From the sequence record OR836606.1: a stretch of 64,000 bases of DNA, one strand, 5' to 3'. The notes under the pieces are model-generated. The model worked only from the letters and a program-made list of their open reading frames with translations, made no database searches and was not told the DNA's origin. This document shows positions 3,627 to 24,000 of the stretch, piece after piece. Positions within the stretch are counted from its first letter, which is position 1. Each line of letters opens with the position of its first letter. Both the position numbers and the translations under genes were made by a program. Source of the DNA: Staphylococcus phage LY01.

Positions 3627-5642
3627 TAACCAATTTCCCCCTCTAATTCTTTAATGATATCATCAGAAGCTTCAATAAGAGAAGGTAAACCATGAAACTC
3701 TTGAGCAAAAGCAACACTGTCTTGACTATTAAATTTACTTACGAATTCAGTATTAAAATCATAATTATCTTTATCTTGCTCATATTTAGGTACCGTTATT
3801 CTATCTTTATCAAGAATATTCATCTTACCTACATGTCCTTCAGGTGTTATATTAAATGCTCTAATAATAGATGGATATAGAGAACTTAAGTCAAAGTCAC
3901 AAACATTACTAAATAATCTATTAGATCTAATATCTTTACCTTTAACCAATACGTCTCCATTACGTTCGATTAACATCATATCAGCTACAAATCCGCCACG
4001 AATTTTATCAGCATTAGGATCCGATAATAATTTTGAATGATTATTGCTTAATACATATCCTTGATTTTCAAAGAATACTGAACTACGATTTCTTAAACAA
4101 ATAGTTTTCTTAAGTGCTTTACTAGGTCTTGTTCTAGTCATGTCTACAATAGAGAATAATAGATCAAACATATTAGTGTTATGTTCAATCAATGCAGCTA
4201 ATACAGTATCCTTAATATTATAAAGAATAAATGTATAGTAATCTCTAAAATGTAAATCAGAGATAGAACCTTCATATACATCTTTAGTAACTCCTGCTTC
4301 TTTTTCTCCAATATCATTTAACTTAACTGATTCCAAAGCACCATTGGGCTTATTAATATTTGCATATAACGCTAATTGGTCAATCCAATTAGTATAAGAA
4401 TTAGTCTCAAATGTAGAAGATCTATTAGCCATATCAGTAGCATTTTTATCTAATTTATAATATGCTTTTTTATCTTCAAATTCTTTAGAACAGAAATAAT
4501 CTGCAGGATTTTCTCCATTAGCTCTAATACGTTCAAATATTGCAGGAAAGTCATAATCTAGCTTTTATATTTATTAAATATAAAATAGACTATATCATAC
4601 TCATTAATATGAGTGAATATATTTAGTCGTTGAACAACTCTTATTAAGTTGATGCTGATCATTCTAAAAAGAACGTTCCAGCAATTAATATTCTTTTAAT
4701 GGAACCTATTATCAATTCCATGCAGTACATATGTCAGGCTTACTAATTTCATTAATATAATATAAGAAAGATTTAATTACTTGCATTTCTGTATCTAATT
4801 CATATATCTCAAATTCTAAACCTAAATTTTTACCAATTTCACTATTTTCATTATTATAAATTTCATTTAAGTTTTTAATTAATTTATCTTGATCTTCCAT
4901 AGTTTCTTTATAAGTGTCAGTGTCATATTTAAGAGCAAATGTTAATACTTTTTTCTTACTCCAATCCACTACAGTTATAATATTTATCTCTGCCTCAGCT
5001 TTAAGCGGGTCCGGGACAATTTGTATTAAAAGTAATACAAATTAGACTATATCTTCTTAGTAATATATTTAGTCGTTGAACATTAAATTTTTAATGATGC
5101 TGATTATCTTAATAAAGAATTTCCAGCAATTAATATTATTTTATCTGAGCTACCTTTAACCCAGTTACTTGAGATCCATCAACCTCAATATCGAATAGAC
5201 ATATATCTATACCAACTTTACTGTCTAAATTCTTTTTAATATACTCATTGATATTATAATCTTCTATATTTATATCAGAACCATGAGCATTATTTAATAA
5301 ATGGAAATCTTTTAGTTTTCTATATTCTTGCCAATTACCTGACTTCATAATTCTATCGTATTCTGCTTTATCTTGAGAATTACCAGCTTCTTTAACTACT
5401 GATTTGATAATATCTTTATGCTTACAAATAACAGTTCTTACTTTATCTTTTTCAATAGAACCTACAATTTTATTAGGAGGTAACCAATGTTCATCTTTAG
5501 TTACATAATAATGCATCATAGGATCTGTTATTTCCATATGTTTTTTAGTACCATCCTCTTCTTTAACTACCATTACTACTTTTTCTTTACCAGAAGCAGT
5601 TTCTTTTTTATTTAAATATGTTGATTTAATGAATCTTCCCAT
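3626..5642 (-). CDS. family B DNA polymerase, N-terminal half (3'-5' exonuclease plus palm motif A); three exons approx 5159..5642, 4715..5016, 3626..4561 interrupted by two miniature group I introns
   Basis: Exo I LFDIEV; then F-PDPLKAEAEINIITVVD matching T4 gp43 FPDPMKAEYDIDAITHYD; Exo II region AWN|LDYDFPAIFERI collinear with T4 GWNVESFDIPYVYNRI; motif A DFDLSSLYPSII. Frames are interrupted exactly at the two intron elements. Confidence 0.8.
4562..4714 (-). ncRNA. miniature group I intron (~153 nt) in polB-N, between Exo II codons ...AWN and LDYDF...
   Basis: mRNA sense: 5' exon AUGGAAU pairs with IGS GGUUCCAU (terminal U-G), P UAUUAAUUGCUGG, Q AAUCAGCAUC, P6 hairpin, R UGUUCAACGACUAAAUAU, P8 hairpin, S GAUAUAGUCU, then A-rich tail ending AUAUAAAAG| (omega-G). 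Stop codons at both intron ends; flanking exons in same phase. Confidence 0.75.
5017..5158 (-). ncRNA. miniature group I intron (~142 nt) in polB-N, between Exo I (FDIEV...TG) and F-PDP
   Basis: P1: exon CUGGGU pairs IGS GCUCAG with terminal U-G; same P/Q/R/S core as the other copies; phase-1 junction regenerates UUC (Phe) before PDP as in T4 (KF-PDP); proposed 3' end ...CAAAUUG|. Confidence 0.65.
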
Positions 5643-5724
5643 TTATCAATTCCACTCCTTAATTCAAATGTTACTTTGATAATTTAAACGTTATCTAGAA
5701 TTTGTAAAAAATTAAAATATAAAT

Positions 5725-5754
5725 TGCCAAACATTCTAATTTAAGAATGTTTGG
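5725..5754 (-). terminator. rho-independent terminator hairpin (gccaaacattct aattt aagaatgtttggc) followed by U-run on minus strand
   Basis: Perfect 12 bp inverted repeat plus T-rich tract in the minus-strand direction. Confidence 0.5.
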
Positions 5755-5761
5755 CTTATTA

Positions 5762-5917
5762 AATTAAATAAACAATGGTTCTTCCATAAAAGAATCCTCA
5801 GCAGTATCAACTTCATCTTGTTTATAAATTGTCTTATTTAAAAATAATTTAGTGGCTATTGTTGAAGATATAAATAATATAATTGATATAAAAATGATTA
5901 ATAATTTCTTTTTATTC
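5762..5917 (-). CDS. small predicted membrane protein (~51 aa, MNKKKLLIIFISIILFISSTIATKLF...)
   Basis: Short ORF with N-terminal hydrophobic helix, below the ORF-track length cutoff; terminator immediately downstream. Confidence 0.3.
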
Positions 5918-5958
5918 ATAGAATTTCATCTCTCCTCTAGATATAAAATAAAGTCTTT

Positions 5959-6156
5959 TTAGAAAAATGTATTTTTAACATTTAGCATTTCAATTCGTTT
6001 ATTAACGATATTAATATCCTTTTGAATTTCTTCTAATTTATCTTTATCAGGGCCATTAGTATGATGTGCTCCATTATTTAATATAATTTGGTAGTGTAAT
6101 TTATTAAATCTTTGAACTAATTTCATTTCATCTAATTTGTTTGTTTTATTTAACAT
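5959..6156 (-). CDS. hypothetical small protein (65 aa)
   Basis: ORF track; tightly spaced upstream of SbcC-like gene cluster. Confidence 0.35.
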   Translation of the reverse strand: MLNKTNKLDEMKLVQRFNKLHYQIILNNGAHHTNGPDKDKLEEIQKDINIVNKRIEMLNVKNTFF

Positions 6157-6171
6157 ATTATCATCTTATCC

Positions 6172-8907
6172 TTAATTTACTTTAAATAATACATTTTTGC
6201 CTTGCATCATTTCTTTATCATTAATGTCAATTTTACTTTCATAACCTTTAAGTAAAATTAAATCAATATCAGCGCTATAGAATTCATCGTTATGACTAAT
6301 TAAAAATACCTGTTCAAGACCCATTAACTCAATTTGCCTGTCTATCACATCAACAAATCTTCTTCGGTTATGAGAATCTAATGTACTATCCATTTCATCT
6401 AAGTAAAGAATATTATAATCTTGAGAAACTTTATTTAATAATGATAATGATAAGCTAATATTAGTTAAAGCTGTTTCTCCTTGGGAAGCTTCTTTAATAT
6501 CTTTAAGCTCAGTTCCATTACCTTTATATACATTGATAAAGAAATCTTTATCTGTCAAATCAAAATCAATTTTAAATGAATTATTATAAGCTACTGAAAG
6601 TAATTCATTAGTACTTACTGCAATATCTTTAAGATAGTTAGTAATGAATATTAATGGTATAGAGTCTTTCTTAGGATTTAATGAATCTACCACCATATTA
6701 TATTTCCATAATACTGATTCAATTTCATCAATCTTAGTAATAATAGAATTAACTGCAAAATATTTTTCTTTAGTGGATTCTAAATCATTTTTCTTCATAG
6801 TTAAATTATCTTTAATAGATTGAATCTTATTATCTGCTTTCTGATTAAGTTCATACAAATTGCTTAGTTTTGAAAGATCTTTATCAATATCATTAACTAT
6901 ATCATTTTTATCTTTAATTTTTGATTTAATTTCTTCAGATTTCTCTGTTAAATTAATAAATTCATTAATAATATTTAAGTTAGTGATTGCTTTTTCTTTA
7001 CGACCATTAAGGTAATTAAGATTCTCAGAAATTTCATTATTTTTATTTTTAATTTCTTCAATTTGTTTAATTAAATCTTCTTTATCTTCTTTATATTGAT
7101 CTAATATTTTCTTATTAGAATAATCTTCTTTAAGAGCATTTTCTTTTCTTTCTAATTCAATAGTCAATTTATCTCTATTAGTTTCATTAGTACGAATTTC
7201 ATTTGTCTTTTCAATTAATGAATTAAGACTATTTAGTTCACTAGAGAATGTATTGCCATTAGTAAATATTTCTTCAATACTATCAATATTAATTATTTCA
7301 AACCCAATATATTTAATTAAACTATTTCTACTAGTAAGTATATCATTGAATTTACGTGATAAGTCAATATGATTAGATAATAGTTTATTATCTTTTTCTA
7401 ATTCTTGATTATTTTTATAAAGTTGATTACCTTTATTTTCTAATTCAGAAATTGAATCAAATTCATTATCTTTAAAATCAGCTACTAAAGGAACAAATAC
7501 ACATTCATTATAGTGTTCATGATCTTTTTGTTCCAATATTTTTAATAAGTCTGATTTACCTTTAATTTGATTAAGCTTAGTATTAATTTCATTAAATTCA
7601 TTCTGGTTCATAGAAATTTTTTCATTATTACCTTTAATTTCTCTTTCAAAATCTCCATGAATAGAATTATATTTGAATTCATTATCATTAATGAATTCTT
7701 TAAAGTTATTTATTTTAGAAATTAAATCATTTACATATAATCTTAATGAATCTTCTTTAATATTATCTTTAATCTGTAATCCGAATTCACTTACAAAAGA
7801 CCCTCTAGAAATATCTACATCCTCTTTAATACCTTCTAAATCTTCTTTATACCCTTCAAGAATTGAATCAATTTCATCAGAAGCATCATAATCTTCATTA
7901 AACTTAATAGCATTCATACGAGATTCTATTTTAGATTTTCTACTAATTAAATCATCTAATTTATCTTGATTATTTTCTTTATCTTTTTCAACAGAAGTTA
8001 ACTCGTTATTAGTGTTATTTAATATAGTATCTATTTTATCTTTTTTATCATTAGCAGATTCAATAGTATATTTATTTAAATTCTCATTATCTTCTTTTAA
8101 TTTTCTTTCTTTTTCTAATTTTTGATTAAGTTCATTAATTTCATTAATTAATTGATTTTTATATTCAGTTGGATGAATCTCTTTGTATTTATCTTCCATA
8201 ATAGAGTTCATCTTAGTTTCATGAGTTGTTTTATCTTTATTAGCTTCATCAAGTTCATCCTGTAATTGATCAATTAAAGTTTCTAAATTCTCTTTTTCTT
8301 TTTTAATTTCATCAAATTCTTTATATTTATCTAAATCAAATCTAAGTGATTTTAAATCTTTAGTAATAACTCTTAATTTCTCATTAGCTACTTTATAAGC
8401 TTCTAAGTATCTATCAATGTTAGGTACAAATTTATTAATATATGATTTACGATCACCTGTAGTATAATCGATAAAGTTTGATACATTATCGCCTAAACGT
8501 CCTACAGTAAAGTATTCTTTAGATACACCTAATTCTTTATCTACTATTTCATTAAATAATTTAATGCCACCATTTTCATTGAGTTCTTCACCATTCTTCT
8601 TAATGAATGATTTATTTTGAGAACTATTTTTTCCATAGTGATGTTTAATTTCATAAAGATCATTATCTTTAATATAATCAATTTCTTTTAATCCTTTTTC
8701 ATTTTCTATGATAATATCTCTTCTTTGGTCATTAGATTCTCTATAAGGACTTAATTGAGAGAGTATGACAGTTTTTGAGCTTCCATTATCTCCAAGAAGC
8801 ATTATCATATTATTTTTACTTTTACTAAAATCAATTTCAACTTCTTTTAATCCCATACCAGCATAAATGCCGATAAAATTCTTTAACTTTAATCTTTTAA
8901 TCTTCAT
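6172..8907 (-). CDS. SbcC/Rad50-like recombination ATPase (T4 gp46 analogue)
   Basis: N-terminal Walker A LLGDNGSSKT, very long coiled-coil middle, C-terminal signature SQGETALT and Walker B/D-loop LYLDEMDSTLD ... FLISHN. Confidence 0.8.
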   Translation of the reverse strand: MKIKRLKLKNFIGIYAGMGLKEVEIDFSKSKNNMIMLLGDNGSSKTVILSQLSPYRESNDQRRDIIIENEKGLKEIDYIKDNDLYEIKHHYGKNSSQNKSFIKKNGEELNENGGIKLFNEIVDKELGVSKEYFTVGRLGDNVSNFIDYTTGDRKSYINKFVPNIDRYLEAYKVANEKLRVITKDLKSLRFDLDKYKEFDEIKKEKENLETLIDQLQDELDEANKDKTTHETKMNSIMEDKYKEIHPTEYKNQLINEINELNQKLEKERKLKEDNENLNKYTIESANDKKDKIDTILNNTNNELTSVEKDKENNQDKLDDLISRKSKIESRMNAIKFNEDYDASDEIDSILEGYKEDLEGIKEDVDISRGSFVSEFGLQIKDNIKEDSLRLYVNDLISKINNFKEFINDNEFKYNSIHGDFEREIKGNNEKISMNQNEFNEINTKLNQIKGKSDLLKILEQKDHEHYNECVFVPLVADFKDNEFDSISELENKGNQLYKNNQELEKDNKLLSNHIDLSRKFNDILTSRNSLIKYIGFEIINIDSIEEIFTNGNTFSSELNSLNSLIEKTNEIRTNETNRDKLTIELERKENALKEDYSNKKILDQYKEDKEDLIKQIEEIKNKNNEISENLNYLNGRKEKAITNLNIINEFINLTEKSEEIKSKIKDKNDIVNDIDKDLSKLSNLYELNQKADNKIQSIKDNLTMKKNDLESTKEKYFAVNSIITKIDEIESVLWKYNMVVDSLNPKKDSIPLIFITNYLKDIAVSTNELLSVAYNNSFKIDFDLTDKDFFINVYKGNGTELKDIKEASQGETALTNISLSLSLLNKVSQDYNILYLDEMDSTLDSHNRRRFVDVIDRQIELMGLEQVFLISHNDEFYSADIDLILLKGYESKIDINDKEMMQGKNVLFKVN

Positions 8908-8963
8908 TATCCAGTTTCAACTCCTATTGATAAATATATTTCCGTTATTATAAATTTTTAATT

Positions 8964-9764
8964 TTATTTAAAATTATTTTTCACTAAATATTCTCTAACA
9001 AATTTTTCATCGGTAATTTCTTCAAATATATCATCTAAATCATCTTCAAAAATATTTATTTTATAACTATGATGATTATTATTAATAACATCATAATCAT
9101 AAACATTTAGCATATCTAAAAAAGAGGCTTTAGAAAAGAAAAATTCAATATTAAAATGATGTCTTAATGATTTTAATAAAATAAGATAATTATTAAAGAT
9201 ATCTTTAATTAAATTCTTAAAATCATCATGGTGCTTTATATTTTGATCTTGAATTTCATTTAATAATTTTTCAAGATTGTCAACTAATATCATTCGTTTT
9301 ATTTCTATTTCATCTTCTTCGTTTAAAATATCTTTTATAATACTATTAAATAAAATTTTATCAATTTTATTTTTTATAGGTTTGATTGTAAATAGTATTT
9401 TATCATTAACACTATTTTTATCTATACTAAAAATAGATTTAGTAGAATCTCTTTTAAATTTAAAATCTGCAATAGTTATAAGTGTTTCAAATGAATTTTT
9501 ATTATTAACATTGTAAAGAACAGGAGGTAGACATCTTGGTAAAAATTTTAAATTGCCTTTAATTGCATTATCTTCTTTTTTATAATGAACATCTATTGCA
9601 AGAGTTTCATATGAATCTTCTTCAGTCTGATTAATTATTTTTTCAGCTATTATTAAAGGTAAATAGTCATATAAAAATGAACCTCTATTATTCTTATCAA
9701 CTTCAAATAATTCATCATTTATTTTACATAAGAAATATTTTTTATCACTTTTCATTGCACCCAT
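8964..9764 (-). CDS. paralog-family protein A (266 aa) with conserved C-terminal tail FEEITDEKFVREYLVKNNFK
   Basis: N-terminal KKYFLCKINDELFEV and C-terminal HHFNIEFF...NNFK shared with 8 other genes; conserved gene junction TTTAAATAAAGGAG...ATG. Confidence 0.7.
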   Translation of the reverse strand: MGAMKSDKKYFLCKINDELFEVDKNNRGSFLYDYLPLIIAEKIINQTEEDSYETLAIDVHYKKEDNAIKGNLKFLPRCLPPVLYNVNNKNSFETLITIADFKFKRDSTKSIFSIDKNSVNDKILFTIKPIKNKIDKILFNSIIKDILNEEDEIEIKRMILVDNLEKLLNEIQDQNIKHHDDFKNLIKDIFNNYLILLKSLRHHFNIEFFFSKASFLDMLNVYDYDVINNNHHSYKINIFEDDLDDIFEEITDEKFVREYLVKNNFK

Positions 9765-9778
9765 TATATTGATCTCCT

Positions 9779-10558
9779 TTATTTAAAATTATTTTTCACT
9801 AAATATTCTTTAATAACTTTCTCATCTGTAATTTCTTCAAATACTCCAGATATTTTATATTCATCAAACAAATTATAATATTCATCATCTATATCATCAT
9901 TATTTCTTTTATCATTCTCTGGTATGTGCGAGAAACAACTATCTGATACAAAGAATTCTATATCAAAATGTGATCGGATTTGTGATAAAATTTCTAATAT
10001 ATAACTATTTACTTCGGTTAATATTTGGTATAAATCTTTATTATTTTTAAAATTAGTTTCTTTACTATTATTATAATCTGATATTAGATTTTCAGGACTT
10101 TCTATAGGTAAATTAAAAGGTATTTTTAAGATATTATCATTATCTAATATATTACCAATGACATTATTGAAAAATATTGAAGTTACATCTGGATTATATA
10201 TGGGTTCAATTCTAATTTTCAAACAATTTTTATTTTCTATTTTTTCATTGAATATAATATCAAAATCAATATTAAGTATATTTATTCCTTCTTTATTACC
10301 AACCTTATATTCTAAAAATGGAAAAATATTGCCAACTGATATAATTCCTGACCATAAATTATTTCCATTACTATCTTCACCCACAATCTCTTCAGAAAAT
10401 ATATCTATTTCTTCACTTTTTATTTGTAAATTAGGAAGTAAATAAGGTAGATATAAATGATCTTCATTTATACCATATCTAGATAAGTTATTAACTATAA
10501 ATAACTCATCTGTCATTTTACTTAAAAAATATGTTTTATCACTTTTATTTATACTCAT
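9779..10558 (-). CDS. paralog-family protein B (259 aa), tail FEEITDEKVIKEYLVKNNFK
   Basis: Same family; 3'-terminal ~60 nt nearly identical at DNA level to neighbours. Confidence 0.7.
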   Translation of the reverse strand: MSINKSDKTYFLSKMTDELFIVNNLSRYGINEDHLYLPYLLPNLQIKSEEIDIFSEEIVGEDSNGNNLWSGIISVGNIFPFLEYKVGNKEGINILNIDFDIIFNEKIENKNCLKIRIEPIYNPDVTSIFFNNVIGNILDNDNILKIPFNLPIESPENLISDYNNSKETNFKNNKDLYQILTEVNSYILEILSQIRSHFDIEFFVSDSCFSHIPENDKRNNDDIDDEYYNLFDEYKISGVFEEITDEKVIKEYLVKNNFK

Positions 10559-10574
10559 TAAATTGATCCCTCTT

Positions 10575-11279
10575 TTATTTAAAATTATTTTTCACTAAGT
10601 ATTTTTTAATAACTTTTTCATCTTTAATTTCTTCAAATAATCCAGATTCATTAAGTAAAAATTTATAATCAAATATAGAAAATGATGTGTCTTCGTGTTT
10701 TTCCATTTTTGTATATATTCCTGTCATAAAATATGCTAACTCTGATTTCCTAACATTTAATTTTAAATTTCCATAACTCATTAAATCCATAATATAATTT
10801 AAAAGAGTTTTATTAAATTCTTTGACTAGTAATTCTAATCCTTCAAAATTTTCAATAGTGTGCCTTATAGTATCACTTAAGATTAAGTATTTTCCATCTT
10901 CTCTATTTTCTATTTCGTAAATAAAAGATTCTTCTGGAAAATCTTTTTTAAATATTCCTCCATCTAGAATAGAATTAAATTCTAAATTAAAATCTGTTTT
11001 GCAAATTTTTAAATTTCTTACATAATCATTACTTATTATATTAGAATTTTGTTTGATTTTAACTACTTTATCATTAAAAAGAGAATAGGTTAAAGAAAGT
11101 TCAGATCGGTAATTAAGATATCCAGGGTCTTTATTCAAATTCTCATTTTTATTAATATATTTCATACACATTTTAGTAAATATTTCAGTCAATTTATCTA
11201 TACGAAAGTCAGTTCTATCTATATCGAAGTGAAGTATTTCTCCATCTAATTTATATCTATAGTAATTATTATATTCCAT
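10575..11279 (-). CDS. paralog-family protein C (234 aa), tail FEEIKDEKVIKKYLVKNNFK
   Basis: Same family. Confidence 0.7.
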   Translation of the reverse strand: MEYNNYYRYKLDGEILHFDIDRTDFRIDKLTEIFTKMCMKYINKNENLNKDPGYLNYRSELSLTYSLFNDKVVKIKQNSNIISNDYVRNLKICKTDFNLEFNSILDGGIFKKDFPEESFIYEIENREDGKYLILSDTIRHTIENFEGLELLVKEFNKTLLNYIMDLMSYGNLKLNVRKSELAYFMTGIYTKMEKHEDTSFSIFDYKFLLNESGLFEEIKDEKVIKKYLVKNNFK

Positions 11280-11300
11280 TATGAAAATCCTTTCTTTATA

Positions 11301-12110: not shown

Positions 12111-12111
12111 A

Positions 12112-12888: not shown

Positions 12889-12915
12889 TTACTTAACTCC
12901 TTTTATTATAATAAT

Positions 12916-12941
12916 CCCAATACTAATTTAATAGTATTGGG
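12916..12941 (-). terminator. terminator hairpin cccaatacta...tagtattggg (same arm sequence as hairpin at 25676-25706)
   Basis: 10 bp inverted repeat downstream of 12993..13370 gene. Confidence 0.45.
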
Positions 12942-12992
12942 ATAACATTTTTATAATATATATTTATTCTAATTTTCAGAATTAGGCGATAC

Positions 12993-14695: not shown

Positions 14696-14751
14696 TTATT
14701 TTTTCAACTCACTTCCATCATATTAATTAATATAAAAGAAAGTTAATTAAA

Positions 14752-15390: not shown

Positions 15391-15406
15391 TAAGTTATTC
15401 TCCTTT

Positions 15407-16015: not shown

Positions 16016-16165
16016 ATCTTTTCCACTCCCTTAATTAGATTAATATAGAGATAATGAATTAATATAATTCATTATCTCATTTTTATAATATATATTTACA
16101 TACATTTTTCATCTAAATAAAAGAGATAACGGACAATTATAGTCCGTTATCTCATCTTTTTAAAT

Positions 16166-18712
16166 TTATTCTTTAGTTAAAGAGTATAAAGCTTGTACCA
16201 TATTATTTATGATAATTAGACTATATCTTCTTAGTAATATATTTAGTCGTTGAACAACTTATATTAAGTTGATGCTGATTAATCTAATAAGATACTTCCA
16301 GCAATTAATATTATTTATTGAGAGCATACAAGCATGTTACTCTCATTACCCAAATTACGTACTGAATTACCAGTGTAGTTTAGGTAGTTAGTTTTCTTAT
16401 TAAGAAGTTTATTAGCTTCTTTATTAGCCTCTACAGTCCAGAGAGATCTGATAGAAATCATATCCATTTACGTTATCTATATTAAGATAATATAGATCAG
16501 ACTATATCTTTACTTTAATAAGCATATTATATTTAGTCGTTGAACACTATTTGTAGTGATGCTGATTAAGATAATAATCTTTCCCAGCAATTAATAATAT
16601 TTAAATACGGCAATATAAATTACCGTCAAACGTTTATGTTATCTATAATAAATGATATCATAGACCAGACTATATCATCATCTCAATTGAGATATATTAT
16701 ATTTAGTCGTTGAACAACTTATATGAAGCTGATGCTGATTGCTCTAATAAGAGTTTTCAGCAATTAATAATATTTTCATTCTTAAATCACTTTAAGAAGC
16801 GACTTTTTCAAATCGGCACCTAACGCTATTTAATTTATAATTAAATTTGGACTATATCATAAACCTAAATATTAGGTTCCCTCACACTTCGGGAATTCAT
16901 TTCCCTACTCTACTCACTTCGTTATAGTATTTCAACTATACTTATTCTCTATATAAGAGTTACATTTATTGTTTTCGATAGTCTCTGAACGTTTATCCAT
17001 CATGTGGATACTTCGCTGCTAGACTTTCCCATTATTAAATACCCTTAGCATTTTCAGCATAGGTCATCAAAGAGATTTTTTCTGTCTTTCGACTGCATGT
17101 CACGCTATCCATTACTGGCATACGTTGTAGCTCTCTAAGCATTAGGGTTTACAAGCAATTCATAAGGTATTTTTTATCCTATATTACTATAAGACTGGAG
17201 CGTAAGTTACTCCGGCATAACTGTTGTGTATAATAGCGGTATCTATAAATACATCTTCATCAACAGGATATTCATGAACAACTTTAGGATAATCTTTAAG
17301 TACAATATCGTCTAAAGTAATTTCAGGAATTGTATCAACTGTAGTCAATATTTTAATTTTGGCAGGTGCAACATTCAAGAAATTTTCGCAAACTATATTA
17401 AATTAATACAGATCAGACTATATCATTACCTACTTTTAGGTATATTATATTTAGTCGTTGAACAAGTTTAATTGACTTGATGCTAATTAACCTATTAAAG
17501 TCTTTTAGCAATTAATAATATTTTCATTCTTAAATCACTTTAAGAAGCGACCAGTGTATTAATCGGATATCTTGAATAAACCACATGCTTATCTTCACAT
17601 ATTTCTGTAGCAGCTATATAAAGTAAATCAATTACAGTAAAAGTTCTACCTAAAGTATTTTCAAATAATTTAACTTTATGACGTTTACCTTGTCTATCAT
17701 TTACATATATAGGACTAAATCTTTCATTAGGATCCTTAATAAAGAATTCTAACATATTCTTAATAGCTTTATCATCAAACTGTTCATATACTTCTTCTAA
17801 TGATAATTCATTTTCATCAGTTCCAGTAGCGGTTTGGAAGGCATCTTTGTGGATTTCAATAAAATCGATAATGTATTTGCTAAAGAAAGGTAAGAATAAA
17901 GTAACTAATTGAGTTAATGGTACCCCTAACTGACCAAATTCAATTTGCATTTCATCCCATTTATTTGAATTAATCTTAGGTGAAGAAATAACTGAGCGAG
18001 TACTGTTATCTACCGTCTTACCTAAAATATTTCTTTGCATCATACCAGTTTTACCTGATAGTTCTCCTGAAGTTAATTTAACGTATATTTCAAATAATTT
18101 ATTTTGAATATTATATTTAGTCGTATTAGCTACAAAGTCAAATGAATTAAAACTAATTGAATCTACAGATCTTAAGATGCTTGCATACATATCATTTATT
18201 TCTTCAGTATCTTGAATTTCCCCTGAAGTTTCATTAGGATTAAAGTCACGATAGAAAGCAGGTATTACGAGCCATTTATCTGTGAATATTCTATCTTTAG
18301 GAGTATTTTTAAGCATATCAATTTTTTCATTTCGGATACGAGAATCATTTTTTCTAAATTTAAGATTTTCATAATTATCGTATAAGAAATTTAATCCAGT
18401 TTCACCATTTTCATCTGGAACTAATTGTCCTTTCTCAATTTTAAAGTAATCAGAACCTTGAATACATAGATCTATATTCTTATCTAATTCTCTCATAGCT
18501 TTATAAGCTACAGGATTCAAGTATTTGCCACCTAAATTAATCCAACCTATATTATTCTTTCTTTCATCAGTACCTATTAAACCAAATATTTCATATGAAA
18601 ATAAACCATCTTCTTTAGGTAAAGTTCCTGAATCAAAGAAAATAGGATTAGTAACTTCTTTAGCTCCATAAGCTGTAATAACTTGATCAACATTAACCAT
18701 ATCTATTTTCAT
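16166..18712 (-). CDS. multisubunit RNA polymerase beta-prime-like subunit, N-terminal fragment; six exons approx 17561..18712, 17192..17388, 16812..16825, 16622..16630, 16349..16464, 16166..16198 separated by five group I introns
   Basis: RNILGKTVDNSTRSVISSPK matches RpoC NLLGKRVDYSGRSVIVVGP; SRYPI ~ NRAPTLH; spliced model reads ...SLGAD|FDG|DMISIRSLWTVEANKEANKLLNKKTNYL, collinear with E. coli [34 protein letters not shown]; gene ends ...NLGNESVQALYSLTKE* near the YYMTRD-equivalent point. Confidence 0.7.
16199..16348 (-). ncRNA. miniature group I intron (~150 nt) in RNAP beta-prime-like gene
   Basis: P1: exon GAGAGU pairs IGS GCUCUC with terminal U-G; P/Q/R/S core; 3' end ...AUAAUAUG| leaves in-frame terminal exon VQALYSLTKE*. 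Confidence 0.65.
16465..16621 (-). ncRNA. miniature group I intron (~157 nt) between FDG micro-exon and DMISIRS exon
   Basis: P1: exon GACGGU pairs IGS GCCGU with terminal U-G; core P/Q/R/S; 3' end ...CGUAAAUG| is the only junction that restores the third Asp of DFDGD in frame. Confidence 0.7.
16631..16811 (-). ncRNA. miniature group I intron (~181 nt) between ...LGAD and FDG
   Basis: Exon CCGAU| pairs IGS GUCG (U-G). 33 nt 5' segment GUCGCUUCUUAAAGUGAUUUAAGAAUGAAAAUAU is identical to the intron at ~17390-17560. 3' end ...AUAAACG| is the only phase-0 G downstream of an in-frame UAA. Confidence 0.65.
16826..17191 (-). ncRNA. group I intron, ORF-less (~366 nt), larger relative of the miniature family and of the IStron intron core
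   Basis: P AUGAAUUGCUUGUAAAC, Q AUCUAGCAGCG, R UUCAGAGACUAUCGAAAAC, S AUGAUAUAGUCC; compared with 24270-24600 the 5' P1-P2-P3 segment, R/P7 and the S/3' segment are largely conserved, P5 and the central domain diverge; putative P1 GUCU|-GGAU; proposed 3' end UUAAAUAG|. Confidence 0.65.
17389..17560 (-). ncRNA. miniature group I intron (~170 nt, boundaries +/- 10 nt) between SRYPI... and ...ENFLNVAPAK
   Basis: Same core; shares the 33-nt 5' segment and the CCGAU| - GUCG P1 arrangement with the intron at 16631-16811. Two phase-consistent junction pairs are possible, so the ends are approximate. Confidence 0.55.
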
Positions 18713-18798
18713 TTAATACTTCACTTCCAATCTAATTTTATAAAAAAATAAATATATAAAAGCCATGTTAAGCTATAAACTTAACATGGCAATAATTA

Positions 18799-19551
18799 TT
18801 AATTAACTAAGCTGTTACTCATATAACTAAAATAATTTAAATCTATTTCTTTTTCTTTAGCTTTCATAATAGTTGCTTCATCTAATTTTTGATTATATCC
18901 TAATGAAGGAATATCAATACCGGTCTGCATAACATTATCACAGTTCATTATAATATCTTTAATATTACTAACCTCGTCTTCATATATTCTAGTAACATAC
19001 CCTAATGTGTTAATTACATCTGATTTCTTTTCATCTGATTCAAGATAATAAATATCAACCTTTTCCATACTTCCCCTAAATAAAGTTTTTAAAAATCTTT
19101 CTTTAGATTTTAAGTTATTGTCAGAAGTCTTAGTTACAATTGACAATTTATTCATTAAAGGAGTATTAATTGTATATGACAAACTTTTAGCTAGATTTGT
19201 TGGCTGTAATGTATCGTATAAATCTTTTTTAAATACAATTTCTTCGTGAAGTTTATTTCTAGCTTCATTAACTTCATCTTCAGAAAATCTTTCATAAACA
19301 TCTTTTCTCACTAACCATTGGTCAATATAATATTCAGGACGATTGAGAACTGTATTGTAATGAGTGCTATAATTATAATCTGGAGATAGTCTGAAAAATT
19401 GATTGTAATAATCAAAATCTTCATGCATTAATTGAACAATTTTAGGTGAAATATTCACTAAAACTTCATCGCAATCAACAACTATATGACCTGTATTCAT
19501 TTCGTTCTCTTTATACATATAATTAAAATTCTCCTTTGTCATAATCTTCAA
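18799..19551 (-). CDS. HAD-superfamily 5'(3')-deoxyribonucleotidase-like protein; true start probably internal (MNTGHIVVDCDEV, ATG ~19500)
   Basis: HAD motif I VVDCDEV (DxDxV) about 10 residues from the likely N-terminus, as in NT5C-type nucleotidases. The ORF-track start at 19551 overlaps the upstream gene by 29 nt. Confidence 0.45.
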   Translation of the reverse strand: MKIMTKENFNYMYKENEMNTGHIVVDCDEVLVNISPKIVQLMHEDFDYYNQFFRLSPDYNYSTHYNTVLNRPEYYIDQWLVRKDVYERFSEDEVNEARNKLHEEIVFKKDLYDTLQPTNLAKSLSYTINTPLMNKLSIVTKTSDNNLKSKERFLKTLFRGSMEKVDIYYLESDEKKSDVINTLGYVTRIYEDEVSNIKDIIMNCDNVMQTGIDIPSLGYNQKLDEATIMKAKEKEIDLNYFSYMSNSLVN

Positions 19552-20863
19552 TGAATCTATTTTTTAATTCTTTTATTTTATCTTCATGAAATTTAGTTTG
19601 TCTAATTTTAAAAGGTTTAGTGCTGTCAAGAAAATCTGTTGAATGAATATTTTCTTCATCAACTAAAGTCATATATTTAGGATTAGTTGTATTTAGTGCA
19701 TCATATAAATCAAATTTATTCTTTTTCATAAGATTGTATTTATCTTGAGTCATTAAAACTGAATAATAAATATCCTTTAATTTAACTGATCTTCTGTAAT
19801 TAGAAGGATCTTGTAAACCAGGTGTTTCTTTAGTATTAGTTATAATTCCTTTACCATGATACTCCTTACCAATATAATAAACTAAATAAATGAACCCCAT
19901 ATTATCTTTAACGCTAAATAATCTATATCCATCTTTATTTTCATCAAATACCTCATAAATATTCCAATCATTAATTACTCTACGCTTAGCATAATAGGGT
20001 CTATTTTCTGGTTTTAAATGATATGGTTGTCCTCCAATACTAAGTCGTTTCTCATATTCTTCTTTTTCAAGTTGTTTAATATAAGTTTTACTAAATTTAT
20101 CCAAAACAATTGAATGTTCTTCATCAAAACTTTCATAATTATAATTAAAAGGTAATACAATCCTAAAAGTTTTACTTGTACATCTATATAAAACTTTACT
20201 TAGATTTTTTTCATTTAATTTAATTTGGATTTCATTAGTTTCTTCATTATAATTAATATCTTCATCATTTATAGAATATAGACTTTTAGTAATTACATTA
20301 AATGTAATTGGATTAACGTCTTCAATCATATTAATAATGATTAAATTTCTTTCATAATCTATATATGCTAACATGTTATACATATCTAAGTTAAGTGAAT
20401 CAGGGTCATACTTATCCTTTGTTTTATGAGGATCTCTAGCCCATACCTCTAATTCTCCCGCATTTTTAATTTTTAATTTAGAATTATCTTTTAATGTGAT
20501 ATCTTTAAGAAAATCTTTACCAATATGATTTCTACCAATCTCATTTAATAATATTGCTAGTTGATGTTCAAATAACTTAGGTATATCTTTCTCTAAAGTA
20601 AAGAAATAACAATCATTATTAAAATTATTTTTATTGCTTTTACGATATTCCTTTAATAAATCAACTAACTCTTTATCTTCATTAAATCGAATAATATTAT
20701 CAATAATAAATCTATTTTGATCAAATCTATAGAACCATGTCCCATTATCATCCATTTTTCTTAACTTAGCCGGTATTTTTCTACCATTTTTTCTGTATAA
20801 ATTCAAATTTTTACTAAATACATCTGACTGTTTTGCCATAGCATTAATACACTCCATTTTCAT
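19523..20863 (-). CDS. hypothetical protein (446 aa)
   Basis: ORF track; no motif recognised. Confidence 0.45.
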   Translation of the reverse strand: MKMECINAMAKQSDVFSKNLNLYRKNGRKIPAKLRKMDDNGTWFYRFDQNRFIIDNIIRFNEDKELVDLLKEYRKSNKNNFNNDCYFFTLEKDIPKLFEHQLAILLNEIGRNHIGKDFLKDITLKDNSKLKIKNAGELEVWARDPHKTKDKYDPDSLNLDMYNMLAYIDYERNLIIINMIEDVNPITFNVITKSLYSINDEDINYNEETNEIQIKLNEKNLSKVLYRCTSKTFRIVLPFNYNYESFDEEHSIVLDKFSKTYIKQLEKEEYEKRLSIGGQPYHLKPENRPYYAKRRVINDWNIYEVFDENKDGYRLFSVKDNMGFIYLVYYIGKEYHGKGIITNTKETPGLQDPSNYRRSVKLKDIYYSVLMTQDKYNLMKKNKFDLYDALNTTNPKYMTLVDEENIHSTDFLDSTKPFKIRQTKFHEDKIKELKNRFIEDYDKGEF

Positions 20864-21050
20864 TTATTTAAAAATGTATCTTAAAAAAGATACATTTCTA
20901 TTACAATTTTATAATATATATTTTAACATAAATTAAAAATTTATGCAAGAAATTTTATATGAAAGTTGATAAATTTTTCTAATTATATAAAATCAATTAT
21001 TTTATCTGAATACATACCAATATTTTCCAATATGTATCCAGATAAATTAT

Positions 21051-24000
21051 TTAGAATTTAATCATATTAGATACAAATGAACTATTTGAAGATTCCAATA
21101 CTCTAACACCAATAGATTCAATAATATCTTTACCTGGTTTAATATGATCTTCAATCATACTATCATAGTCAATAAAAGGTCTAAACTCTTCAGGAATTGT
21201 ATTACCTTCAACTGCAATTACATTTAAACCGTTTTTAACTAAACTTTCATTCTTAAATACTTCTCTAAATCTATCTAAAGTATCTTCATCAGTTATCTTA
21301 TTTTTAATATCTCCAAATGTACTAATATTCAATTTAACTGCTAATATCTTAGCAGGTAATGCTATTTCTTTTTCTGGGAACATTATATTCCATGCTAAAG
21401 CAGCTCTATATGCCATTTGAGAATAAGGGTCTTTATATACCTCAGCATTATTAGCTTTAAACGGTTTTAAGAATTCGATTTCTCCATTATCTAATGATTT
21501 CTTAATCATTTCTTCTATATCTTTAAATTTACGTATTATCTTAATACGATCTACACCGGTTTTATTTTCTAAAATATCTTTTTGTAATATTTCAGTAAAT
21601 AGTTCTCTAATACGTTTATTAGTATTAACTTTTCTAATAGCCATACCTTTAACATCTAAATCTGGAGGTTGAATTAAATTACCCTCTTGTTGAATTACTG
21701 ATGATGCATAAGTTTTCTTTTTATCAGTTGTTAATTGTTTATCAAGTAAAACATTTTTATTAGCTTTATTAAATTAATAAAGATTAGACTATATCTTATA
21801 CTTATATTAAGTACATTTATATTTAGTCGTTGAACTTAATTTCTTAAGCTGCTGATTTAATTAATGAACTATTCCAGCAATTAATAAATTTATCTTTCTG
21901 TATATCGCTATACAACGGAGCATTAACTTGATAATACTCATTTTTCATTGATATTAAACCTAAATGTTCTTCCTCTAATCCTACATCTTTACAGAATCTA
22001 TAGTAAGACAATTCTAATAATTTAGTTATTTGATAGTTAATAATAGATATATTACTTACACGTTGTTCTAATTTATCCTCTAAACCATTCTCTGCAATTG
22101 GAAAATCTTCAGGTTTTAAAGATTTAAATTTTTCGTATAACGGATCTAAGTGAACAAAGTTCATTTATGTTAGCTGTATCAAATATAATACAGATCAGAC
22201 TATATCTTCTTTAGAAATATATTTAGTCGTTGAACTTAATTTCTTAAGCTGCTGATTTGATTAATAAATCATTCCAGCAATTAATATTTTTTATTGACAG
22301 CAATTTTTTATCACAACTGTCAGTATCTATAGTTAATACGCTTCTACGTTTCTTGTAATTCATTCTATACATTCTATTATAATCTTGATAATTATATATA
22401 ACCCAATCTTTTAATATTTCAAATAATTCATCTAATAATGGAATCATATCTTCAGGAGGATCATTTGGATCTAAGAAATCTTCTCTGCCAGTCATTTTAC
22501 TAATTTTATTATCAAATATATCGGTATGATCAATTAACCCAAATAAATTATTTTTGAAATATACTTTATTTTTATCTTCTTGACTTAATTTACTAAATAC
22601 TTCTTCTAACTTAAGAAAATCTTCTTCACTATAATCTTCTTCAACATTAGAAACTAAACCTTCTAAAATTTCTTTATCAGTTGGAATTGATTTTATCTTA
22701 ATATCATGATCTTCATATTTTTCACTAATTATTCTTAATATATAATGATATATTTCATCAATCTTCATGAAAAAGATTTTACCGCCAATAAATCTTTCTA
22801 AAGCTATCGCTGAAGTAGTTACAATATCAACTGCTATATAAATTCGTGAATTTAATTTAATTAATTCGAATTTATTCGACTTCGTCATTACTTTTACTTA
22901 CTTTGCACTTTAAGTTTTTCGTTATAAACTACTTCAACATAAAGTGTCAACCAAAGCAGAGGTTAAAGCTCTTAAGTCATCACATTTGGACATTCAAGAG
23001 AATTTAAATCTAGTTAGCCTGCCCAACAAAACGCTTACCGTACATTTTGAGGTTGACAGCAGCGTTATAATCTCTATCCATTTTATTTCCACAATCACAC
23101 TTATACCATCTATCTGATAACTTCATCTTATTTTCTTTAGTTAAGACTTGACCACAATTAGAACATAATTGAGTTGATGGGAACCATCTATCTGCTACAA
23201 TAATAGTATTACCATTGCTTTCAGCTTTTTGTTTTAATAAAGTTCTGAATTGTCTCCAATTCATTGCAGAAATAGATTTAGACAAATTTCTATTTTTAAT
23301 CATATTTGAAACTTTAAGATCTTCAATTGTAATATACTGATAATTTTTAATTAAGTTAGTAGTTATTTTATGAAGATAATCTTTTTTAATGTTATTAATT
23401 CTCATCCATATTTTTTGTATTTTGGTTTTCAATACATTGTATTTGTTAGAACCATAAACTTTACGAGATAATCTTTTTTGATAGTACTTAATCTTATTGT
23501 ATAGTGGAATCAATTTATCATTTAATGAATGATATTTCTTAAATTTACCGAAATCATCATTAATGATAGCTAAATCTTTTACACCTAAATCAATACCAAC
23601 ATGGCTATTGTTATGAATTAAGCTCTTATTATTATCAACTTTCATTACTATTGAAGCGAAATATTTTCCAGCATATTTAGATATAGTAACTTCTTGAATG
23701 GAATTATAATTAAACGGGATAGATTCTTTCATTTTAATTAATGAATTAATTCCTTGAAGTTTTAATTTATTATTTTTATCGCCTTTAATTTGTAATGAAT
23801 AATTATTCTTCTTATAGAACCTTGTACTTAATTTAGAATGTTTTTTAGATTTAAATCTCGGATACTTACCGTAACCTTTCCACATCATATTAAAAGCTTT
23901 ACCTAAATCTTCAGTTGCTGTGTCCATAACTTGAGATATTTGATCTTTTTCCCAATCTTCTTTACATTTTTTAAGTTCATCACGAACTTTCCTATGTGTT

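What the first reader, a model, noticed from the sequence alone, without database searches (positions are those of the whole stretch)
4562..22315. Family of eight miniature (142-181 nt) group I introns in replication and transcription genes
Eight copies are about 150 nt: 4562-4714, 5017-5158, 16199-16348, 16465-16621, 16631-16811, ~17389-17560, 21764-21914, 22162-22315. Read in mRNA sense, each has the canonical group I elements in order. These are P (UAUUAAUUGCUGG), a minimal P5, Q (AAUCAGCAUC), a P6 hairpin, R (UGUUCAACGACUAAAUAU), P3' (AAUAU pairing AUAUU upstream of P), a P8 hairpin and S (GAUAUAGUCU). P6 and P8 differ in sequence between copies but stay palindromic. P4 shows a clean compensatory change (UGCUG/CAGCA in most, UGCUA/UAGCA in the 17.4 kb copy). 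In at least five copies the 5' exon end pairs with an internal guide sequence ending in a U-G wobble: AUGGAAU/GGUUCCAU, CUGGGU/GCUCAG, GAGAGU/GCUCUC, GACGGU/GCCGU, GACAGU/GCUGUC. All end in an A/U-rich tail terminating in G (omega-G), often ...AUAAA-N-G|. P2, P5abc, P6b and P9 are essentially deleted. If splicing-competent, these would be among the smallest group I introns I am aware of. Insertion sites are hyper-conserved: Exo II, just before F-PDP, directly after DTDS of polB motif C, and inside NADFDGD of the RNAP subunit.
Basis: partly seen in the sequence, partly recalled or inferred. Interest (0 to 1): 0.92.

Follow-up and report, generated by a model that had tools for sequence, protein, structure and literature searches.

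The report
Miniature group I introns, jumbo phage
Eight very small (140-184 nt) ORF-less group I introns of one family interrupt the DNA polymerase and virion RNA polymerase genes of a Staphylococcus jumbo phage; they are real and structurally complete, far smaller than textbook group I ribozymes, but belong to a kind of phage intron already noticed in relatives.

Summary
The window is a Staphylococcus jumbo phage of the S6/MarsHill clade (AR9-like). It carries exactly eight copies of one ORF-less element on the minus strand. Intron-less alleles in phages S6 and SA1 fix the boundaries to the nucleotide: 153, 142, 140, 157, 181, 173, 184 and 154 nt. All eight follow a 5' exon U and end in G. 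Removing them restores full-length proteins that align without gaps to the intron-less homologues. Each copy has P1 with a U.G wobble, P3 to P9 in canonical order and the classical P/Q/R/S sequences. The P3/P7 pseudoknot and P5, P6 and P8 covary strongly across 37-49 distinct relatives. Two introns flank a 9-nt exon encoding the FDG of the RNA polymerase catalytic motif. Introns at several of these sites were already predicted in MarsHill-like phages, and small (about 206 nt) group I introns with metatranscriptome support were reported in gut "Jug" phages. I did not test splicing. I file this as a miniaturised variant of a known kind, of moderately high interest.

The parts
4562..4714 (-). c1, 153-nt mini group I intron in the polB exonuclease-subunit gene (Exo II, TAWN|LDYDFP). 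P1 is AUGGAAU/GUUCCAU. It has P8 and P9 hairpins and ends ...AUAAAAG.
   Evidence: Boundaries from the empty S6 allele. CM score 119.5 bits. P1 is 7 bp, control fraction 0.011.
5017..5158 (-). c2, 142-nt mini intron in the same gene (VTG|FPDP). P1 is CUGGGU/GCUCAG. There is no P2, P8 is reduced to ACUAAGAAG, and the P9 hairpin is 12 bp.
   Evidence: (87.7 bits).
16199..16338 (-). c3, 140-nt mini intron near the 3' end of the virion RNAP beta'-N gene (NES|VQALYSLTKE*). P1 is UGAGAGU/GCUCUCA. P8 is vestigial and P9 is short.
   Evidence: (103 bits). MarsHill has an identical-length (140 nt) copy at the same site and Machias a 142-nt copy.
16465..16621 (-). c4, 157-nt mini intron between FDG and D of the catalytic ADFDGD motif. 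P1 is ACGGU/GCCGU and uses 5 of the 9 micro-exon nucleotides.
   Evidence: (101.6 bits). A 96.8% identical copy sits at the same site in MarsHill.
16622..16630 (-). 9-nt micro-exon UUUGACGGU (Phe-Asp-Gly) between c5 and c4.
   Evidence: Alignment to SA1 and S6. The spliced product reads ...AGALGADFDGDMISIR.
16631..16811 (-). c5, 181-nt mini intron at GAD|FDG. P1 is CGAU/GUCG, extended by UU/AA around a GAAA loop. It has a P2 hairpin (UUCUUAAA/UUUAAGAA).
   Evidence: (123.9 bits). A 45-nt 5' module is identical to c6.
17389..17561 (-). c6, 173-nt mini intron at RYPI|ENF of beta'-N. It has the same IGS (GUCG) and P2 as c5. P4 carries the compensatory UGCUAA/UUAGCA change.
   Evidence: (113.7 bits). 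Machias has a 183-nt copy at the same site.
21752..21935 (-). c7, 184-nt mini intron in the polB catalytic-subunit gene (MKNE|FLLD, upstream of KKxY). P1 is GAGU/GCUC. It has a P2 hairpin (UGUAUA/UAUACA) and a GAAA-capped P6.
   Evidence: (90.3 bits). MarsHill and Machias are occupied at the same site.
22162..22315 (-). c8, 154-nt mini intron directly after DTDS (motif C) of the polB catalytic subunit. P1 is UGACAGU/GCUGUCA. P8 is a stub (CUAAAGAAG).
   Evidence: (93.3 bits).
3626..5642 (-). Host gene 1, the polB exonuclease/N-terminal subunit, in 3 exons (5642..5159, 5016..4715, 4561..3626).
   Evidence: The spliced product is 573 aa and 555/573 identical to S6 BDE75617 with no gaps.
16166..18712 (-). 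Host gene 2, the virion RNAP beta'-N subunit. It has 6 exons split by c6, a 384-nt group I intron (17209..16826), c5, c4 and c3.
   Evidence: The spliced product is 503 aa and 487/503 identical to SA1 QPI17095 with no gaps.
21051..25234 (-). Host gene 3, the polB catalytic subunit. It has 4 exons split by a 1.9-kb TnpB-carrying group I intron (about 24742..22832), c8 and c7.
   Evidence: The spliced product is about 645 aa and 560/650 identical to SA1 QPI17093. It matches Pfam divDNApol.

Best explanation
The eight elements are bona fide but miniaturised, ORF-less group I introns of one family, related to IA-type phage introns.

How they most likely work (inferred):
- Each is transcribed within the pre-mRNA of an essential gene.
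- It folds into the canonical two-domain core, P4-P6 and P3-P7-P8/P9, held together by the P3/P7 pseudoknot.
- It selects its 5' splice site through a 4-7 bp P1 helix between the exon end and an internal guide, closed by a U.G wobble.
- It is excised by the standard two-step guanosine-initiated transesterification. The 3'-terminal G then occupies the P7 G-site for exon ligation.

Shown here: the exact boundaries, restoration of the reading frame, the helices and their covariation.

Inferred, not shown: catalysis, and whether it needs protein help.

The family has no homing endonuclease gene. It seems to spread between co-infecting phages by recombination, carrying flanking exon sequence along with it. 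It also seems to reach new sites that match the guide sequence. One 5' module (IGS GUCG plus a P2 hairpin) sits at three different sites that all end in CGAU.
For: Family and chance:
- Eight copies are found against 0.2 expected.
- The CM scores them at 88-124 bits, and the next best hit is 21 bits.

Boundaries:
- Intron-less S6 and SA1 alleles give exon|exon joins identical in register to the predicted splice products.
- All eight 5' exons end in U and all eight introns end in G.
- Seven of eight lengths are not multiples of three, so read-through is impossible.

Spliced products:
- beta'-N is 487/503 identical to SA1 with no gaps.
- The exonuclease subunit is 555/573 identical to S6 with no gaps.

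P1:
- 4-7 bp ending in U.G in 8/8 copies.
- Matched-control fractions are 0.005-0.36 each, and their product is about 4e-11.

Core structure:
- On 49 distinct sequences fitted to the CM, 95.6% of cells pair and 22/33 pairs show double changes. Slid controls give 27-43%.
- On a structure-blind MAFFT alignment of 37 sequences, P3 covaries at 6/6 pairs, P8 at 5/5, and P4 shows a GC<->AU swap in 8 sequences. P7 is invariant. 98.5% of cells pair, against 22-45% for slid controls.

Exon adaptation:
- The Ser codon before c3 and c8 is AGU in intron-bearing alleles, but UCG/UCA/UCC in empty S6 and (at c8) SA1 alleles; empty SA1 also has AGU at the c3 site.
- The Machias copy at the c4 site has exon ...GGC with guide ACCAUC, which I read as a C.A wobble in place of U.G.

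Link to accepted introns:
- The same family is abundant in IMG/VR jumbo-phage contigs, with 336 hits in 0.9 Mb.
- A 2026 paper reports small group I introns, mean about 206 nt, in gut jumbo phages, with 37 of 76 supported by metatranscriptome reads (PMC12880540).
Against: - There is no match to Rfam Intron_gpI at the gathering score or at E<=10.
- No transcript or peptide data exist for this phage.
- The RNAs are AT-rich (21-27% GC) and thermodynamically weak. Core MFE is -18 to -26 kcal/mol, with z-scores of -2.2 to -3.3. Full-length c3 gives z = -0.6.
- Three copies have only a 4-bp P1, which alone is not significant.
- Three copies lack a real P8, a helix normally regarded as part of the universal core.
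- The link between the IMG/VR contigs and the published Jug phages is inferred from size, GC content and habitat. I did not verify it.
Confidence: 0.9

Rival explanations
1. They are group I introns in architecture but no longer autonomous ribozymes. After losing P2, P5abc, the P9 extensions and in part P8, they fold and splice only with help from a phage or host protein (a maturase- or CYT-18-like scaffold, or an RNA chaperone), or only at low temperature.
For: - Nested folding energy is very low and GC content is 21-27%.
- P8 is vestigial in c2, c3 and c8.
- P1 is only 4 bp in c5-c7.
- MarsHill-like phages reportedly do not propagate well at 37 C (Korn et al.). This is circumstantial only.
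Against: - All catalytic-core elements (P3, P4, P6, P7, J8/7, the G-site) are intact and conserved across hundreds of copies in distant phages.
- The P8-stub variant recurs in Staphylococcus phages and in gut-phage contigs. That argues for a selected, working design rather than decay.
- No candidate cofactor has been identified.
Confidence: 0.35
2. The elements are non-spliced repetitive insertions (MITE/REP-like). The interrupted genes would then be expressed as separate fragments or be pseudogenes.
For: - The family is multi-copy, short, AT-rich and ORF-less.
- Jumbo-phage RNAP subunits are already naturally split into several genes.
Against: - A 9-nt exon (FDG of the catalytic triad) cannot be expressed on its own.
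- The fragments lack start codons and ribosome-binding sites.
- Every boundary is U|...G| and restores the frame exactly.
- Base-pair covariation, including a pseudoknot, indicates selection on an RNA fold.
- Viable isolates (MarsHill, Machias) carry copies at the same essential sites.
Confidence: 0.03
3. They are group I-like cleavage ribozymes (GIR1 / lariat-capping type) rather than splicing introns. This was suggested in passing for the small elements of Jug phages.
For: They are small, and PMC12880540 cites the GIR1 paper for its roughly 206-nt elements.
Against: - They have a canonical P1 formed with the 5' exon, a terminal G exactly at the exon boundary, and P2 and P9. They sit directly in ORFs rather than inside another intron.
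- The same paper shows reads spanning spliced junctions.
Confidence: 0.01

Closest known systems
[quoted passage not shown]
   Same: - Same phage clade and same genes (virion RNAP beta'-N, DNA polymerase subunits).
- Copies of this very family occupy the c3, c4 and c7 sites in MarsHill and Machias, plus the c6 site in Machias only.
   Different: - Those introns were inferred only from protein alignment to AR9. No RNA class, structure, family relationship or size was discussed.
- The MarsHill beta' CDS ends at the edge of the CM core hit (L001 3982), which I read as running into the c3-type intron, so that intron was missed.
- The window adds sites c1, c2, c5 and c8 and the 9-nt exon.
Small group I introns of gut 'Jug' jumbo phages (Sci Adv 2026, PMC12880540)
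   Same: - ORF-less, numerous (about 18 per genome), small (mean about 206 nt), and located in essential genes.
- Splicing is supported by metatranscriptome reads for 37 of 76.
- IMG/VR contigs of matching size and GC content carry hundreds of copies of the family found here, including one at the identical NAD|FDGD site.
   Different: - The hosts are Bacteroides/Phocaeicola phages.
- The example I delimited is about 191 nt, against 140-184 nt here.
- That the IMG/VR contigs are Jug phages is inferred, not verified.
- That paper gives no structural analysis.
[quoted passage not shown]
   Same: A minimal, ORF-less bacterial group I ribozyme with only core helices plus short P2 and P9. It is usually cited as the smallest natural self-splicing group I intron (my own knowledge, not checked with a tool).
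   Different: - It is GC-rich and very stable, sits in a tRNA anticodon loop, is single-copy, and is stabilised by tetraloop-receptor contacts.
- The introns here are 10-32% shorter, AT-rich, located in mRNA and multi-copy. Some lack P2 and a real P8.
Phage Twort orf142 introns, T4 td/nrdB/sunY, and SPO1/AR9 polymerase introns (IA-type phage group I introns)
   Same: - They sit in phage protein-coding genes for DNA and RNA metabolism, at highly conserved motifs, sometimes several per gene.
- They share the same P/Q/R/S flavour (GUUCAACGACUA / AUAUAGUC).
- The AR9 beta' intron core is weakly detected by the CM.
   Different: - They are about 250 to over 1000 nt (my own knowledge; the AR9 HEG ORFs are seen).
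- They usually have P7.1/P7.2 or P9 extensions and often a homing endonuclease ORF.
- They are not a dispersed multi-copy family.
Degenerate 56-81 nt putative group I introns of fungal SSU rDNA (PMC3160393)
   Same: They are claimed to be extremely reduced group I derivatives.
   Different: - They lack most of the catalytic core and are described as putative or degenerate.
- The elements here keep every core helix and the G-binding site.

Membership tests
Group I intron | The 5' splice site follows a U that forms a U.G wobble with an internal guide sequence in P1. | tested here: met
   - Boundaries come from the empty alleles.
- 8/8 exons end in U paired to G, with P1 of 4-7 bp.
- A Machias orthologue shows what I read as C.A in the same place.
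Group I intron | A 3'-terminal guanosine (omega-G) lies immediately before the 3' exon. | tested here: met
   8/8 introns end in G at the nucleotide required to restore the frame.
Group I intron | Core helices appear in the order P3-P4-P5-P5'-P4'-P6-P6'-P7-P3'-P8-P8'-P7'-P9, with a P3/P7 pseudoknot. | tested here: met
   - Covariation on the CM-fitted alignment and on the structure-blind MAFFT alignment.
- P3 covaries at 6/6 pairs, P5 at 4/4, P6 at 5/5, P8 at 5-6 pairs, and P4 at 1 pair.
- P7 is invariant, which is uninformative.
Group I intron | Conserved P, Q, R and S elements, and a G-binding site in P7 (a G-C pair next to a bulged nucleotide). | tested here: met
   - AAUUGCUGGAA, AAUCAGCA, GUUCAACGACUAAA and AAGAUAUAGUCU are invariant or nearly so in 8/8 copies and in 49 relatives.
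- The match to the classical consensus rests on my own knowledge (Cech 1988; Michel and Westhof 1990).
Group I intron | A stable P8 helix as part of the P3-P8 domain. | tested here: inconclusive
   - P8 is a 4-8 bp covarying hairpin in c1 and c4-c7.
- It is only a 2-3 bp stub (ACUAAGAAG / CUAAAGAAG) in c2, c3 and c8, and in MarsHill, Machias and IMG/VR copies.
Group I intron | A match to the curated covariance model (Rfam RF00028 Intron_gpI). | tested here: not met
   - No hit at the gathering score over the window, nor at E<=10 over 4000-24500.
- The two full-size group I introns in the same region are also missed, so the model is insensitive here.
Group I intron | Guanosine-dependent excision and exon ligation (self-splicing). 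| not testable with these tools
   Only indirect evidence exists: essential genes in viable relatives, and published metatranscriptome support for small introns in gut jumbo phages.
Group I intron | Sequence relationship to an accepted group I intron. | tested here: met
   - The CM hits the core of the AR9 beta'-N intron that carries a homing endonuclease, at 25 bits, E 0.0015.
- The R and S elements are shared with the two full-size introns in the window.
Lariat-capping (GIR1) group I-like ribozyme | No P1 with the 5' exon, internal branching or cleavage instead of exon ligation, and a location inside a twin-ribozyme intron. | tested here: not met
   There is a canonical P1 with the exon, the terminal G lies at the exon border, and the elements are inserted directly in ORFs.
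Mobile (homing) group I intron | An intron-encoded homing endonuclease. | tested here: not met
   At 140-184 nt there is no room for an ORF of any useful size. Mobility must rely on trans factors, recombination or reverse splicing.

The most novel reading that the evidence does not exclude
c2, c3 and c8 (140-154 nt, no P2, P8 reduced to a conserved 2-bp CU..AG stub) are autonomous self-splicing ribozymes. They would be the smallest natural group I ribozymes known, about 30% shorter than the Azoarcus intron. The family would behave like an RNA-level MITE, colonising any exon site that matches its 4-7 nt guide (for example three different ...CGAU| sites) through reverse splicing, followed by cDNA or recombinational fixation.
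Probability: 0.3. Interest if true: 0.8.

Novelty: new variant of a known kind. Interest (0 to 1): 0.62.

Why it matters
- If they splice on their own, these RNAs set a new natural lower bound for a complete group I ribozyme: 140 nt, AT-rich, without P2 and with almost no P8. That is useful for understanding which parts of the fold are truly indispensable. It is also useful for compact ribozyme engineering, such as permuted-intron circular RNA.
- They show that ORF-less introns can proliferate as a dispersed family. There are 8 copies in 3 genes here, 9-30 per related Staphylococcus phage, and hundreds in gut jumbo-phage contigs.
- They preferentially hit catalytic motifs and even leave 9-nt exons. 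Gene callers therefore mis-annotate polymerase genes in these phages.

Tried and rejected
- **Rfam.** cmscan at the gathering score and at E<=10 found no group I hit. It also misses the two obvious full-size introns, so I treat this as model insensitivity.
- **Reverse-transcriptase hypothesis.** I asked whether the retron-like RT (MarsHill gp206) is restricted to intron-rich phages. It is present in all nine Staphylococcus jumbo phages, including the four without the family. There is no correlation, so this gives no support for or against RT-mediated spread.
- **Bacterial genomes.** The exact R motif occurs in 19 genomes of many phyla. Only two MAG contigs contain CM-detectable mini cores, so the family is essentially phage-borne.
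- **Literature on the smallest or shortest group I intron.** Phrase searches returned nothing useful. The Azoarcus 205-nt benchmark therefore rests on my own knowledge.
- **Papers not available.** The AR9 genome paper is not held and the Jug paper has no supplements held. Intron sizes in AR9 and per-intron sizes in Jug phages could not be read.
- **Nested MFE folding.** It gives only modest z-scores and cannot see the pseudoknot, so I rely on covariation instead.
- **The non-U 5' splice site of the 384-nt and TnpB introns.** I first suspected a boundary error. Published behaviour of group B IStrons explains it.
- **Machias polB intron.** I first mapped it to the c8 site. Reading the sequence shows it lies 9 nt upstream, at ID|TDS.

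Full report
**What the window is.** The window is 25% GC, and genes run on the minus strand up to about 33 kb. The 390-aa ORF at 18712..17540 is 95-97% identical to the virion RNA polymerase beta'-N subunit of Staphylococcus jumbo phages PALS_2, S6, DC4, MarsHill and Madawaska. It is 44% identical to that of Bacillus phages AR9 and PBS1. At the DNA level the region is 90-94% identical to those phages, but with very different coverage (48-86%). That already points to insertion polymorphism.

**Checking the observation.**
- The 18-nt R-element core occurs 8 times on one strand, against 0.2 expected by chance.
- I built a covariance model of the core, from P3 to P7' (R1). With filters off it finds exactly those eight at 88-124 bits. 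The next hit in 64 kb scores 21 bits.
- Phage SA1 has uninterrupted beta'-N and polB catalytic-subunit genes.
- Phage S6 has uninterrupted copies of both, and of the polB exonuclease subunit.

Aligning these empty alleles to the window fixes every boundary:

| Copy | Coordinates (minus strand) | Length (nt) |
|---|---|---|
| c1 | 4714..4562 | 153 |
| c2 | 5158..5017 | 142 |
| c3 | 16338..16199 | 140 |
| c4 | 16621..16465 | 157 |
| c5 | 16811..16631 | 181 |
| c6 | 17561..17389 | 173 |
| c7 | 21935..21752 | 184 |
| c8 | 22315..22162 | 154 |

c3 and c7 needed correction.

- In every case the 5' exon ends in U and the insert ends in G.
- Seven of the eight lengths are not multiples of three.
- In-silico removal gives a 503-aa beta'-N that is 487/503 identical to SA1 with no gaps.
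- It gives a 573-aa exonuclease subunit that is 555/573 identical to S6 with no gaps.
- It gives a polB catalytic subunit co-linear with SA1.
- c5 and c4 are separated by a 9-nt exon, UUUGACGGU. It encodes the FDG of the catalytic ADFDGD motif.

**Anatomy.** Read as RNA, each copy has the following, in order:
- P1, formed by the exon end and an internal guide, closed by U.G
- an optional P2 hairpin (c5, c6, c7)
- P3 5' strand, then J3/4 (UAAU)
- P4 (UGCUGG/UCAGCA), J4/5 (AA) and a 4-6 bp P5
- a 5-6 bp P6
- GUUCAAC followed by P7 (GACUA)
- J7/3, then the P3 3' strand
- P8
- J8/7 (AGAUA), then the P7 3' strand (UAGUC, followed by a U that pairs across a bulged C)
- a 5-12 bp P9 hairpin
- a short A/U tail ending in G

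The P, Q, R and S sequences match the classical group I consensus (my own knowledge).

On the other hand, P8 is reduced to ACUAAGAAG or CUAAAGAAG in c2, c3 and c8. The same stub recurs in MarsHill, Machias and metagenomic copies, so it looks like a selected variant rather than decay.

P1 is 4-7 bp with a terminal U.G in 8/8 copies. Against 4000 random U positions in the same strand, the chance of an equal or longer helix is 0.005-0.36 per copy. That is individually modest for c5-c7 and jointly very unlikely.

**Relatives and covariation.**
- blastn finds the family in MarsHill (9 places), Madawaska (11), Machias (29), AH12 (30) and PB50 (20). It finds none in S6, PALS_2, DC4 or SA1.
- The exact R motif occurs in 95 stretches of IMG/VR contigs, mostly 200-400 kb.
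- R1 finds 336 hits in 0.9 Mb of these loci, often in arrays spaced about 210 nt apart.
- On the 49 distinct sequences among the best 150 hits, 95.6% of cells pair and 22 of 33 pairs show double changes. With partners slid by 1-3 columns, only 27-43% pair.
- That alignment is fitted to the model, so I repeated the count on a plain MAFFT alignment of 37 diverse copies. RNAalifold on its own recovers P4, P7 and P8.
- My structure, including the P3/P7 pseudoknot, gives 98.5% paired cells on that alignment. All six P3 pairs and all five P8 pairs covary, and P4 shows a GC-to-AU swap in 8 sequences. Slid controls give 22-45%.
- P7 never varies, as expected for the G-binding helix.

This is strong evidence for selection on a group I fold.

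**Evidence that the exons are adapted to the intron.**
- At the c3 and c7 sites the window's exon flanks are identical to those of intron-bearing MarsHill. They differ from intron-less S6, which is otherwise the closer backbone. This indicates co-conversion of flanks during intron transfer.
- The Ser codon just before c3 and c8 is AGU in intron-bearing alleles. It is UCG, UCA or UCC in empty S6 and (at c8) SA1 alleles, although empty SA1 also has AGU at the c3 site. The change is synonymous, supplies the terminal U and pairs with the guide.
- In Machias the intron at the c4 site follows GAUGGC and has the guide ACCAUC. I read this as a C.A wobble replacing U.G.
- c5 and c6 share a 45-nt identical 5' module: guide GUCG, P2, P3 and P4. 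Both follow ...CCGAU.
- Machias carries the same module at a third site, in polB after AUCGAU (ID|TDS).

So the guide sequence predicts the insertion site. That is what reverse splicing, or selection for P1 pairing, would produce.

**Mechanism.** The best-supported reading is ordinary group I splicing of pre-mRNA.
- Shown: exact boundaries, frame restoration, the helices and their covariation.
- Inferred: catalysis and autonomy.

The RNAs are weak. Cores fold at -18 to -26 kcal/mol with z-scores of -2.2 to -3.3, and full-length c3 gives z = -0.6. Dependence on a protein or on low temperature is a serious sub-hypothesis.

Rfam's Intron_gpI model does not detect them. It also misses the two unmistakable full-size introns nearby, so I treat that as insensitivity.

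R1 weakly detects the core of the endonuclease-carrying group I intron in the homologous AR9 beta' gene, at 25 bits.

**Mobility.** The elements encode nothing. I tested whether the retron-like reverse transcriptase of MarsHill (gp206) tracks the family. It is present in all nine Staphylococcus jumbo phages, with or without the family, so its distribution is uninformative. Recombination between co-infecting phages with flank co-conversion is directly suggested by the data. Guide-directed ectopic insertion is suggested by the three CGAU sites. Help from free-standing endonucleases remains possible.

**What is already known.**
- Korn et al. predicted introns in the RNAP and DNA polymerase genes of MarsHill, Madawaska and Machias from protein alignments. 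They did not address RNA class, family or size.
- Their MarsHill beta' CDS ends at the edge of the c3-type core hit (L001 3982), so that intron appears to have been missed.
- A 2026 paper reports 2513 group I introns averaging about 206 nt in gut 'Jug' jumbo phages. Metatranscriptome reads support 37 of 76.
- The IMG/VR contigs carrying this family fit those phages in size, GC content and habitat, but I could not verify identity.
- One such contig has seven mini-introns in 1.4 kb of its beta' gene, with exons of roughly 25-35 nt. One intron sits at the identical NAD|FDGD position and is about 191 nt long.

The kind is therefore known. What is new here:
- the recognition of a single dispersed family
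- its full structure
- the 140-184 nt size range, below the 205-nt Azoarcus benchmark (my own knowledge)
- the P8-stub variant
- the 9-nt exon
- the guide/target relationship

**Verdict.** The finding is real and correctly interpreted, with corrections to boundaries and to the P2, P8 and P9 statements. It is a miniaturised variant of a known kind. Interest is moderately high and depends on whether the smallest copies self-splice.

Noticed in passing
window 24742..22832 (- strand; ends uncertain by 1-2 nt): A 1.9-kb insertion lies in the polB catalytic-subunit gene between TYSG and VDIVTT. It is absent from SA1, S6, MarsHill and Machias. It consists of a full-size group I core (R at 24404, S at 24279-24270) followed by a TnpB ORF at 24158..23010 (OrfB_IS605, Cas12f1-like TNB and HTH domains). 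This is an IStron-like element. The 5' exon ends in GGAG rather than U, as described for group B IStrons, which are already known from C. botulinum phages (PMC4227781).
   Followed up: partly
window 17209..16826 (- strand): A 384-nt ORF-less group I intron lies in beta'-N between AG and ALGAD. Its core is very similar to that of the TnpB intron. Restoring the frame requires splicing after G (GGAG|U...AAAUAG|C). It looks like an ORF-less derivative of the IStron. Neither Rfam nor my mini-intron model detects it.
   Followed up: partly
L061 10880-12243 (IMG/VR contig 3300008672_000001, 400 kb); also L089 and L012: Arrays of up to seven mini-introns occur in 1.4 kb of an RNAP beta' gene, with exons of roughly 25-35 nt. 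One intron lies at exactly NAD|FDGD, as for window c5. There are 336 family hits in 0.9 Mb of such loci.
   Followed up: partly
L001 3884-3982 (MarsHill MW248466.1, CDS CPT_MarsHill_113): The deposited MarsHill beta' CDS is joined from 3 pieces and ends at the upper edge of the c3-type core hit (L001 3982), where I expect the intron to begin. The last exon (VQALYSLTKE) therefore seems to be missing from the annotation.
   Followed up: partly
L003 about 6572-6380 and about 645-465 (Machias MW349128.1): Machias has a c5/c6-type intron in polB at ID|TDS, 9 nt upstream of the window's c8 site. Its c4-site intron follows ...GGC with guide ACCAUC, an apparent natural C.A replacement of the U.G wobble.
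   Followed up: partly
L122 1290-2795 (MarsHill gp206) and homologues: The retron-like reverse transcriptase is conserved in all nine Staphylococcus jumbo phages (56-100% identity) and more distantly in Listeria phage LPJP1. It is a clade-wide core gene of unknown role, and Korn et al. report about 1.2 kb of non-coding DNA upstream of it.
   Followed up: partly
window 19523..20863 (- strand): This 446-aa ORF between beta'-N and polB appears to have a counterpart of similar size and position in MarsHill, judged from the annotation tables only. S6 and SA1 show no gene of that size there. S6 and MarsHill instead carry about 3 kb of small genes downstream of beta'-N that the window lacks. The window phage looks like a mosaic of the S6-like and MarsHill-like lineages.
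   Followed up: no
L109 (Muribaculaceae MAG contig CAZEMQ010000001.1) and L113 (Tidjanibacter MAG): These are the only bacterial-genome contigs, out of 19 carrying the exact R motif, that contain CM-detectable mini cores. They may be binned phage DNA or prophages, which would hint at Bacteroidales hosts for the metagenomic relatives.
   Followed up: no
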